Source: Octopus vulgaris
Lineage: Eukaryota
Length of the DNA stretch: 64,000 bases
Direction of reading: 5' to 3'
Assembly (NCBI GenBank): GCA_951406725.2
Contig: OX597843.1
Coordinates: forward strand, 19,964,001-20,028,000
Below the pieces are notes generated by a model. It saw only the letters and a program-made list of their open reading frames with translations, ran no database searches and was not told the origin of the DNA. The translations under genes were made by a program, and so were the position numbers. Of the stretch, positions 53,757 to 54,521 are shown piece after piece (positions within the stretch are counted from its first letter, which is position 1; every line of letters begins with the position of its first letter).

Positions 53757-54521
53757 TATAAAATTAATATTAATATTTCACCAAGTATTCAGTATATATT
53801 ATATTTTAGTAAAATAAATTATATACTCATTAGAAATAGCAGCTAAAAAAACTTTTTTAAAACTATTTCCAATACTTAAAGAAAATCTCTCTCATATAGT
53901 GTTTGCTCAATTCAATCACGAAAGTATGGGGGTAGAGACATTAAAAAATTCTGAGTTCTGAGCTGATGATAGAAGTGTCGAGTTTGACTAATCTTGAAAC
54001 GTACGTTCTCAAATAACCTTTGCATTTGATTTTTTAATGTCTCTACCCCCATACTTTCGTGAGTTGAATTGAGCAAACACTATATGAGAGAGATTTTCTT
54101 TAAGTATTGGAAATAGTTTTAAAAAGTTTTTTTAGCTGCTATTTCTAATGAGTTCAGTATGCGGCAAAGTAATTTATTTTACTAAGCCCTTTTATATAAT
54201 GTAATAATTTGAATTCGCCTTAAATGGTCCCTTTGCATACTGAATACTTGGTGAAATTGATTAATTAATTAATTTTACCCTCAATTGTTGAAATTATAAT
54301 TCATCTCTCTCTATTTAATGCCTCGGATTTTACCGAAAAAAGCATAGTGTTTGCTGATTTTAACCCACGCTGGTGGAAAGGGGAGAGCAGAAATTCTTCG
54401 CTTGCATATTTGAATTTGCTGGCACTGTTAGTTTCGAGCAGGTCTTCAGAAGCGATGGGAAGCCGAAAGGGTATGCTCCCACTTTCAGTGTTTTCAAATC
54501 CAAACCAGGGAGTTCTGAGCT
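53757..54521 (+). mobile_element. Hammerhead-containing fold-back (pLTR/retrozyme-like) element in (TA)n
   Basis: ~125-bp inverted arms 53825-53949/54029-54153; hammerhead in the loop; 12-nt direct repeat at 53953 and 54510. Confidence 0.75.
53959..54011 (+). ncRNA. Type I hammerhead ribozyme
   Basis: Stem I tgag/ctca, CUGAUGA 53963-53969, stem II aga..gtcga/ttgac..tct, GAAA 53996-53999, palindromic aacgtacgtt, GUU site (cut after 54007). Confidence 0.75.

What the first reader, a model, noticed from the sequence alone, without database searches (positions are those of the whole stretch)
53757..54521. Hammerhead at the apex of a long palindrome, with a ~557-nt terminally redundant unit: candidate retrozyme-like circular RNA insertion
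Seen: a complete type I hammerhead (53959-54011) sits in the loop of near-perfect ~125-bp inverted arms, with extra outer paired blocks (53775-53795/54237-54257). The 12-mer gagttctgagct, which overlaps the start of the ribozyme (53953), recurs 557 nt later (54510) exactly where the insert stops and (TA)n resumes. No recognisable coding domain. Known: metazoan non-LTR retrozymes and Penelope pLTRs carry type I hammerheads with palindromic stem III that act as dimers. Inference: this is just over one turn of reverse transcription around a ~557-nt circular or tandem RNA plus a fold-back 5' arm, i.e. a non-autonomous ribozyme element possibly undescribed in this lineage.
Basis: partly seen in the sequence, partly recalled or inferred. 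Interest (0 to 1): 0.78.

Follow-up and report, generated by a model that had tools for sequence, protein, structure and literature searches.

The report
Penelope-borne hammerhead retrozyme, damaged copy
This is one end-damaged copy of a non-coding 557-base repeat carrying a hammerhead-ribozyme motif, present in thousands of copies in this animal genome; its insertion ends match the pattern left by Penelope-like retrotransposons, so it likely borrows their enzyme, likely primed from both cut DNA strands at two fixed sites on its RNA.

Summary
The hammerhead (53959-54011), the inverted arms and the 557-nt period are real. The insert is one copy of an ORF-less family (4,781 exact hits of one 27-mer; tandem arrays up to ~17 units) lying in (TA)n. 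Four subfamilies at 61-80% identity keep a 556-596-nt unit and compensatory changes in the hammerhead stems and the 3:8 core pair: a non-LTR retrozyme, a known kind. Family ends sit at two fixed sites ~95 nt apart. In 52 of 53 two-armed insertions with two canonical ends, one arm ends at each site. An autonomous Neptune-type element of this genome shows the same two-end footprint. In 18 insertions neither arm can be a fold-back copy of the other, yet the arms are nearly identical: this favours priming from both target strands over self-priming. Cleavage, a circular RNA and the helper element are inferred, not shown; no ORF-bearing homologue was found.

The parts
53578..53756 (.). (TA)n target microsatellite, left side
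   Evidence: (array 53578-53760)
53757..53949 (-). Inverted (minus) arm of the insertion: unit positions q77-201 (q1 = 53953) followed by remnants of the long terminus
53757..53824 (-).
53949..53955 (+). Head-to-head junction of the two arms, with a 7-nt duplication of 53956-53962
   Evidence: (by eye)
53953..54521 (+). Plus arm: one whole 557-nt unit plus 12 nt; its 3' end at q12 is non-canonical and unique in the genome
53959..54011 (+). Type I hammerhead motif; predicted cleavage between 54007 and 54008; U.U at the foot of stem II
53998..54007 (+). 10-nt palindrome forming helix III (2-nt loop as monomer; 10-bp intermolecular helix predicted in a dimer)
54153..54244 (+). Conserved stem 54153-54161/54236-54244 with a compensatory pair between subfamilies; encloses the short start site
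   Evidence: columns 493-501 with 579-587
54198..54203 (+). Site S (q246-251): short 3' end of family insertions, inferred reverse-transcription start
54204..54298 (+). ~95-nt 'tail' between the two family ends, containing a conserved AT-rich hairpin (54250-54279)
54290..54298 (+). Site L (q338-346): long 3' end of family insertions, inferred second reverse-transcription start
54521..54577 (.). (TA)n target microsatellite, right side

Best explanation
The insert is one end-damaged copy of an ORF-less, tandemly repeated 557-nt hammerhead element (a non-LTR retrozyme) that sits in (TA)n and is likely mobilised in trans by a Penelope-like (probably Neptune-type) RT-endonuclease, likely priming cDNA from both cut target strands at two fixed sites on its RNA. 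Steps: (1) SHOWN: thousands of copies, tandem units, no linked ORF in the copies examined, (TA)n targets, two fixed 3' ends S and L, variable 5' ends, head-to-head arms. (2) SHOWN as covariation, activity INFERRED (~0.75): the hammerhead fold is conserved across four subfamilies and would cut multimeric transcripts to ~557-nt monomers, probably as a dimer through the palindromic helix III and probably weakly, given the unpaired 10.1/11.1 position and the GUU triplet. (3) INFERRED (~0.6): monomers are ligated to circles, which RT reads past the cleavage site and for more than one turn; uncut multimers would give the same footprint. (4) INFERRED (~0.75): the helper protein cuts both strands of (TA)n; one 3' end primes at S, the other at L of the same RNA type; the two cDNAs join by microhomology, giving the palindrome. 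(5) INFERRED (~0.55): the helper is a Neptune element such as the young 781-codon family found here. (6) Partly shown: long arrays grow further by local duplication. In the window copy the minus arm is an L-type arm with internal skips; the plus arm is either primed at an unusual site or lost its S end afterwards.
For: Copy number: 4,781 exact hits of a 27-mer, control 0; 639 exact hits of a subfamily-A hammerhead 22-mer. Tandem arrays of 557-560-nt period. No ORF-linked copy in 55 position-ordered loci by tblastn with the Neptune protein; 2 had unrelated Neptune fragments nearby. Ends: 22 S/L of 22 and 30 S/L plus 1 L/L of 31 two-armed insertions with two canonical ends. The autonomous Neptune family N1 has RT and GIY-YIG, (TA)n targets and two ends 40 nt apart, with S/L in both two-armed copies seen. 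Tail at one end, inverted 5' copy and (TA)n bias are described PLE marks (PMC8557442 passages; PMC3846280 passages); a PLE protein cuts and extends both strands and starts at two sites flanking the tail (PMC11167929). Non-containment of arms: 18 of 18 re-tested leave 16-153 nt unmatched, 8 of 8 controls 0-5 nt. Arms of one insertion differ by 1.07% (0.64% for non-contained), tandem units by 0.56%, different loci by 9.45%; 0.34%, 0.74%, 1.81% in the similarity-selected set. 48 of 82 arms run through the cleavage site, 2 stop at q50-62, 22 exceed one unit. Hammerhead pairs named a priori: 98.5% paired, 6 of 11 with changes on both sides including C3:G8 to U3:A8, 0 of 500 shuffles as high on covariation score. 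Circular monomers fold at z -4.6 to -6.0, sense strand better than antisense in 4 of 4.
Against: No ORF-bearing element with homologous termini was found: a profile of the four subfamilies hit only separate retrozyme copies in 44 + 3 PLE-containing loci, whereas PMC3846280 reports no cross-mobilisation between PLE types and the 2026 preprint finds pLTR homology for 24 of 57 Xenopus families. Rfam has no hit and MFE folds of monomer and dimer are not the catalytic fold. Eight of nine predicted Xenopus retrozymes did not cleave in vitro (preprint) and hammerhead cleavage was dispensable for PAc insertion. Covariation counts rest on 12 sequences of 4 related subfamilies, so few independent events. 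Long arrays L061 and L062 show private variants shared by subsets of units, so they are not pure rolling-circle products. One L/L insertion exists (L180). The window copy itself has one non-canonical end. RNA evidence is only contigs from runs guessed to be RNA.
Confidence: 0.82

Rival explanations
1. Same element and helper, but the template is an uncut linear multimer transcribed from genomic arrays; no circle is needed and the hammerhead acts at another step or weakly.
For: Arrays of 5-17 units exist and could supply multimers; PAc uses unprocessed RNA and hammerhead mutants insert normally (PMC11167929); no pile-up of 5' ends at the cleavage site (2 of 82); unpaired 10.1/11.1 in most copies of all four subfamilies.
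Against: Units within an arm are near-identical and their differences mostly private (74 private, 25 shared); L063 carries one allele in all 7 pieces, both arms included, seen in none of 39 other loci; unit length and a fold closed around the hammerhead are conserved at ~61% identity. None of this excludes homogeneous source arrays.
Confidence: 0.33
2. The inverted arm arises by fold-back self-priming of one cDNA, with the second end resolved by the endonuclease.
For: Arms share a haplotype; in 34 of 53 canonical two-armed insertions one arm is contained in the other; several junctions are exact turn-arounds (L012, L016, L188, L204).
Against: 19 of 53 are non-contained by coordinates and 18 of 18 re-tested stay so (L201 not re-tested); the unmatched part is often the ~95-nt tail, which needs a second RNA-templated start. 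A hybrid (fold-back plus a short L-primed cDNA) remains possible but still needs both starts.
Confidence: 0.12
3. The copies are 5'-truncated pseudo-LTRs of an autonomous PLE that was not found, and tandem units are partial-tandem pLTRs.
For: All insertion marks are those of PLEs; only Neptune-type proteins were used as probes, and the searches score only the best candidates.
Against: Arms run for up to 11-17 ORF-less units; two-armed inserts are bounded by (TA)n on both sides with no ORF; 0 of 55 position-ordered loci are ORF-linked; four subfamilies at 61-80% identity all keep the closed ~560-600-nt unit.
Confidence: 0.06
4. A satellite spread by DNA-level processes (unequal crossover, extrachromosomal circles), the hammerhead being a relic.
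For: Shared private variants among units of long arrays.
Against: Fixed 3' ends, variable 5' ends, (TA)n targeting, dispersed single insertions, sense-strand RNA structure with compensatory changes.
Confidence: 0.03

Closest known systems
Metazoan non-LTR retrozymes (Cervera & de la Pena 2020, PMC7229834; Li, Clavereau & Pollet 2026, 10.64898/2026.07.22.740005)
   Same: Non-coding tandem repeats, low GC (35%), one type I hammerhead per unit, monomers to multimers, self-paired predicted circle, co-occurring with PLEs; 557 nt lies within the 51-972 bp range of the preprint.
   Different: Larger than the 170-400-nt RNAs characterised in 2020; expression, circle and cleavage untested here; no homologous pLTR found; here the link to PLEs rests on insertion ends (two fixed ends, tail, inverted arm), which the parts of those papers that I read do not analyse.
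Canonical EN+ Penelope-like elements, Neptune clade and Poseidon_Ac (Craig et al. 2021, PMC8557442; Frangieh et al. 2024, PMC11167929; Arkhipova et al. 2013, PMC3846280)
   Same: Partial tandems, inverted 5'-truncated copy, tail at one end only, (TA)n or AT-rich targets, hammerhead near the 3' end, two RT start sites flanking the tail.
   Different: No ORF; tail ~95-100 nt instead of 30-40; hammerhead ~190 nt upstream of the short end; start sites are A/U-rich and could pair with the (TA)n primer, whereas PAc starts in an AC-rich stem-loop not homologous to the target.
PLE hammerheads with palindromic helix III acting as dimers (Cervera & de la Pena 2014, PMC4209133)
   Same: Short helix I, palindromic loop 3, U3-A8 core variant in subfamily C as reported for Cercyon elements.
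   Different: Long helix II with an internal loop, and a 1x1 mismatch at 10.1/11.1 (U.U or A.A in most copies).
Non-autonomous Chlamys elements such as MRC1 (PMC8557442 passage)
   Same: Non-autonomous PLE derivatives with multicopy head-to-tail insertions.
   Different: Those generally resemble an autonomous family at the 3' end, and most Chlamys lack canonical hammerheads.
L1 twin priming (recalled; not tested against a paper here)
   Same: Two target 3' ends prime on RNA and give an inverted 5' part.
   Different: In L1 the two parts are adjacent, non-overlapping pieces of one RNA; here both start at fixed sites ~95 nt apart and the arms overlap in sequence.

Membership tests
non-LTR retrozyme | Short tandem repeat with a type I hammerhead in every unit (at least two consecutive units) | tested here: met
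   Arrays of 2-17 units; core intact in 91 of 93 unit pieces from 40 similarity-selected loci
non-LTR retrozyme | Non-coding; no LTR, PBS or PPT architecture; low GC | tested here: met
   Longest stop-free frame 53-111 codons, GC 33-35%; PBS/PPT not searched specifically, but the end structure is not LTR-like
non-LTR retrozyme | Stable self-paired monomer circle | tested here: met
   Predicted only: z -4.6 to -6.0 in 4 subfamilies against 25 shuffles each
non-LTR retrozyme | Hammerhead self-cleaves | not testable with these tools
   Covariation supports the fold; activity needs an assay
non-LTR retrozyme | Expressed as linear and circular monomer RNA | tested here: inconclusive
   Contigs of runs only guessed to be RNA cover the unit and mostly not the flank; no strand, ends or circularity
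PLE-mobilised element | Two fixed 3' ends separated by a tail present at one end only | tested here: met
   52 S/L of 53 canonical two-armed insertions
PLE-mobilised element | Inverted 5'-truncated copy head-to-head with the main copy; partial tandems | tested here: met
   33 of 55 position-ordered loci are two-armed, besides 5 loci of a derived mini-element
PLE-mobilised element | Microsatellite (TA)n target bias | tested here: met
   3' flanks
PLE-mobilised element | Homology to the pLTR of an autonomous PLE | tested here: not met
   No hit in the pLTRs within 47 PLE-containing loci, all Neptune-type; other PLE clades not probed
Autonomous Penelope-like element | RT plus GIY-YIG ORF between pLTRs | tested here: not met
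   No ORF in the unit or linked to 55 loci
Rfam hammerhead families | Covariance-model score at the gathering threshold | tested here: not met
   No hit at gathering or E<=10

The most novel reading that the evidence does not exclude
A long-lived lineage of ~560-nt circular RNAs that has evolved for at least four subfamily radiations with no detectable parent PLE, keeping only a ribozyme and a structured two-start landing pad; one RNA circle presents sites S and L across a single helix to the two halves of a PLE protein dimer, so each cut target strand is extended from a different fixed site. This would explain the PLE tail and inverted arm as one event, replace self-priming as the source of PLE palindromes, and give the first insertion-level evidence that animal retrozymes are copied from circles by PLE enzymes.
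Probability: 0.35. Interest if true: 0.72.

Novelty: new member of a known kind. Interest (0 to 1): 0.5.

Why it matters
How animal retrozymes are mobilised, and how PLEs make their tail and inverted arm, are both stated as open in the papers read (PMC7229834 discussion; PMC8557442 passages; preprint discussion). This family gives a large natural record of insertion ends: a near-strict one-short/one-long rule and arms that cannot be fold-back copies. A short non-coding template and a young intact Neptune ORF in the same genome make both questions directly testable in the published in vitro format (PMC11167929). The element class itself is known, so the surprise is moderate.

Tried and rejected
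Rfam: no hammerhead hit. Search for an autonomous homologue: GIY-YIG search of the genome (148 matches, 30 loci plus 10 extended), blastn and nhmmer of the unit and a four-subfamily profile against them, a copy 2 kb from a GIY-YIG hit (L171) and Neptune fragments beside L220/L223: all incidental neighbours. A PLE-specific Pfam accession recalled from memory is not in the library. Sequencing runs: no RNA holder listed; laid contigs show no molecule ends or joints. 'Nearest other locus' control is uninformative (short conserved loci give 0%; arm-arm lower in only 5 of 27) and was not used. Constrained hammerhead energies used a partly wrong pair list and were discarded. The subfamily-B monomer folded was 29 nt short; redone. 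Pile-up of arm lengths at one turn: looked at by eye, confounded by selection of loci, not claimed. Classical non-overlapping twin priming rejected: 5' ends of L arms do not cluster at S. Earlier-findings look-ups by sequence and by place were empty.

Full report
Observation. Numbering below: q1 = window 53953, unit length 557. The hammerhead has a 4-bp stem I, an intact core, a long stem II opened by a U.U pair, and a palindromic helix III with a GUU triplet. Rfam does not detect it. The window lies in a 2.8-Gb, 227-contig genome. No call established the lineage; the microsatellite-rich architecture recalls octopus genomes, from memory only. Runs under three organism labels hold the sequence.

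Family. The unit is a high-copy repeat: 1,898 and 1,516 first-look candidates, 4,781 exact matches of a 27-mer shared by subfamilies A and A2 with 0 in the reversed control, 639 of an A-type hammerhead 22-mer. The first 100 matches fall in 56 insertions over 60.6 Mb, which scales to about 2,700 insertions. Copies are partial monomers up to arrays of about 11 (L061) and 17 units (L173+L062). Three sister subfamilies turned up: A2 (563 nt, 80% to A), B (about 595 nt, about 62%) and C (556 nt, 61%). All are ORF-less (longest stop-free frame 53-111 codons) and end at the equivalent two sites.

Structure. On an alignment of 12 real monomers from the four subfamilies, RNAalifold recovers stems I, II and III unprompted, plus a stem around site S and the AT-rich tail hairpin. 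For the 11 hammerhead pairs named a priori, 98.5% of cells pair, 6 pairs change on both sides, including C3:G8 to U3:A8 in subfamily C; 0 of 500 shuffles reach the covariation score and slid controls pair 25-44%. These are few independent events. The U3-A8 variant is already described (PMC4209133, first part read). Circular monomers fold at z -4.6 to -6.0 and better on the hammerhead strand. The core is intact in 91 of 93 unit pieces from 40 loci, but these loci were chosen by similarity. Against activity: MFE folds of monomer and dimer are not the catalytic fold, and positions 10.1/11.1 are unpaired in most copies.

Ends. Read on the hammerhead strand, 3' ends abut (TA)n at q246-262 (S) or q338-346 (L); 5' ends vary. 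Two sets were counted, from a table entered by hand with a few 5' ends estimated. Similarity-selected: 26 two-armed insertions, 22 S/L and 4 with a non-canonical end (the window copy among them); single-armed loci and the complex L079 were not counted. Position-ordered: 55 loci, of which 33 two-armed (30 S/L, 1 L/L, 2 with a non-canonical end), 16 single-armed, 5 loci of a derived mini-element and L226 left out of the count. So 52 of 53 insertions with two canonical ends have one of each. In the sense RNA, S and L are predicted to pair across one helix in A, with similar folds in A2 and B. This is the PLE 'tail' at one end plus inverted copy (PMC8557442 passages; PMC3846280 passages), here about 95 nt long. 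Frangieh et al. (PMC11167929, three of four parts read) show that such a tail lies between two RT start sites and that both target strands are cut and extended, with no difference in start site between strands.

Helper. The genome holds several Neptune-type PLE families. N1 is young (copies about 98% identical), has a 781-codon stop-free frame with RT and GIY-YIG, direct pLTRs, (TA)n targets, a U3:A8 hammerhead, and two ends 40 nt apart, S/L in both two-armed copies seen. None of the pLTRs in 47 PLE-containing loci is homologous to the unit, and other PLE clades were not probed. The helper is therefore inferred from the footprint only.

How the palindrome forms. Self-priming has been proposed for PLE palindromes (PMC3846280 discussion passage). 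A fold-back copy must be contained in the arm it copies. By coordinates 19 of 53 insertions break this; 18 of the 19 were re-tested on sequence and all leave 16-153 nt unmatched, while 8 of 8 controls leave 0-5. Yet arms are nearly identical: 1.07% overall and 0.64% in non-contained cases, against 9.45% between loci; 0.34% against 1.81% in the similarity-selected set. The simplest reading is that each target strand primes its own cDNA, one at S and one at L, on one RNA or one RNA type. A search for 'twin priming' with 'Penelope' listed 3 papers, none about PLEs by title or abstract start; searches showed no count of this kind. Subscription papers and preprint supplements were not visible, so absence from print is not established.

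Circle or multimer. 48 of 82 arms run through the cleavage site, 2 stop near it, 22 exceed one unit, so cut linear monomers are not the main template. Units in an arm differ by 0.56%, mostly at private sites, and L063 carries one otherwise unseen allele in all 7 pieces. This fits repeated reading of a circle, the model of PMC7229834 (discussion and one results part read), but homogeneous multimers fit too. L061 and L062 show variants shared by subsets of units, pointing to later local duplication. Contigs from runs guessed to be RNA cover the unit and, apart from another repeat, not the flank; this shows neither strand, level nor circularity.

The window copy. The minus arm is q77-201 followed by pieces of the L terminus separated by A/T fill. 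The plus arm is one unit plus 12 nt and stops at q12; that end followed by (TA)n occurs once in the genome. The 12-mer thus marks the true period but not the element's ends, and the hammerhead's apical position is incidental.

Verdict. A new member of the non-LTR retrozymes, which a 2026 preprint (10.64898/2026.07.22.740005, three of five parts read, supplements not seen) already treats as non-autonomous PLE derivatives of 51-972 bp. Searches pairing a guessed lineage with hammerhead and Penelope terms listed only PMC8557442. The class is known; the added value is the insertion-end evidence for PLE mobilisation and for two-site, two-strand priming. Interest 0.5.

Noticed in passing
L111:1430-6672 (G000:C16), also L112-L119: Young Neptune-type PLE with a 781-codon stop-free frame, 456-bp pLTRs, 40-nt tail and a U3:A8 hammerhead; many near-identical intact copies. 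Candidate helper.
   Followed up: partly
L101, downstream of the GIY-YIG match: Another Neptune family carries a hammerhead with A3:U8 in the core, a third variant of the 3:8 pair in one genome.
   Followed up: no
L203, L219, L222, L241 (twice), L243: An identical ~210-nt structure, inverted q271-346 joined to q117-248, recurs at five loci: a two-armed insertion product without a hammerhead that seems to have become mobile itself.
   Followed up: no
L089/L278, L071, L084, L099, L114: Further unrelated type I hammerhead motifs with palindromic helix III, one in a two-armed insertion in (TA)n; the genome likely holds several more retrozyme or pLTR families.
   Followed up: no
L061 (C19) and L173+L062 (C12): Arrays of about 11 and 17 units with private variants shared by subsets of units, suggesting growth by local duplication after insertion or assembly effects.
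   Followed up: partly
window 1098-1144, minus strand: A second hammerhead-like motif (U3:A8 core, palindromic helix III) in what looks like a PLE terminal fragment.
   Followed up: no
window about 19300-20050: Head-to-head inverted pair of decayed Neptune-type 3' fragments with GIY-YIG similarity at 19482-19676 and 19745-19882.
   Followed up: no
window 8177-9154, 60100-61284, 31726-32400, 24003-24560: Other mobile-element remnants: two RVT_1 matches, a PIF1 helicase match overlapping a 69-bp tandem repeat, and a DUF7041 match.
   Followed up: no
L111:1855-1872 versus window 54136-54149: By eye, a 14-nt stretch near the Neptune pLTR end matches the motif most conserved among subfamilies A-C at 10 of 14 positions; possibly a shared protein-binding signal, not significant in any search.
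   Followed up: no
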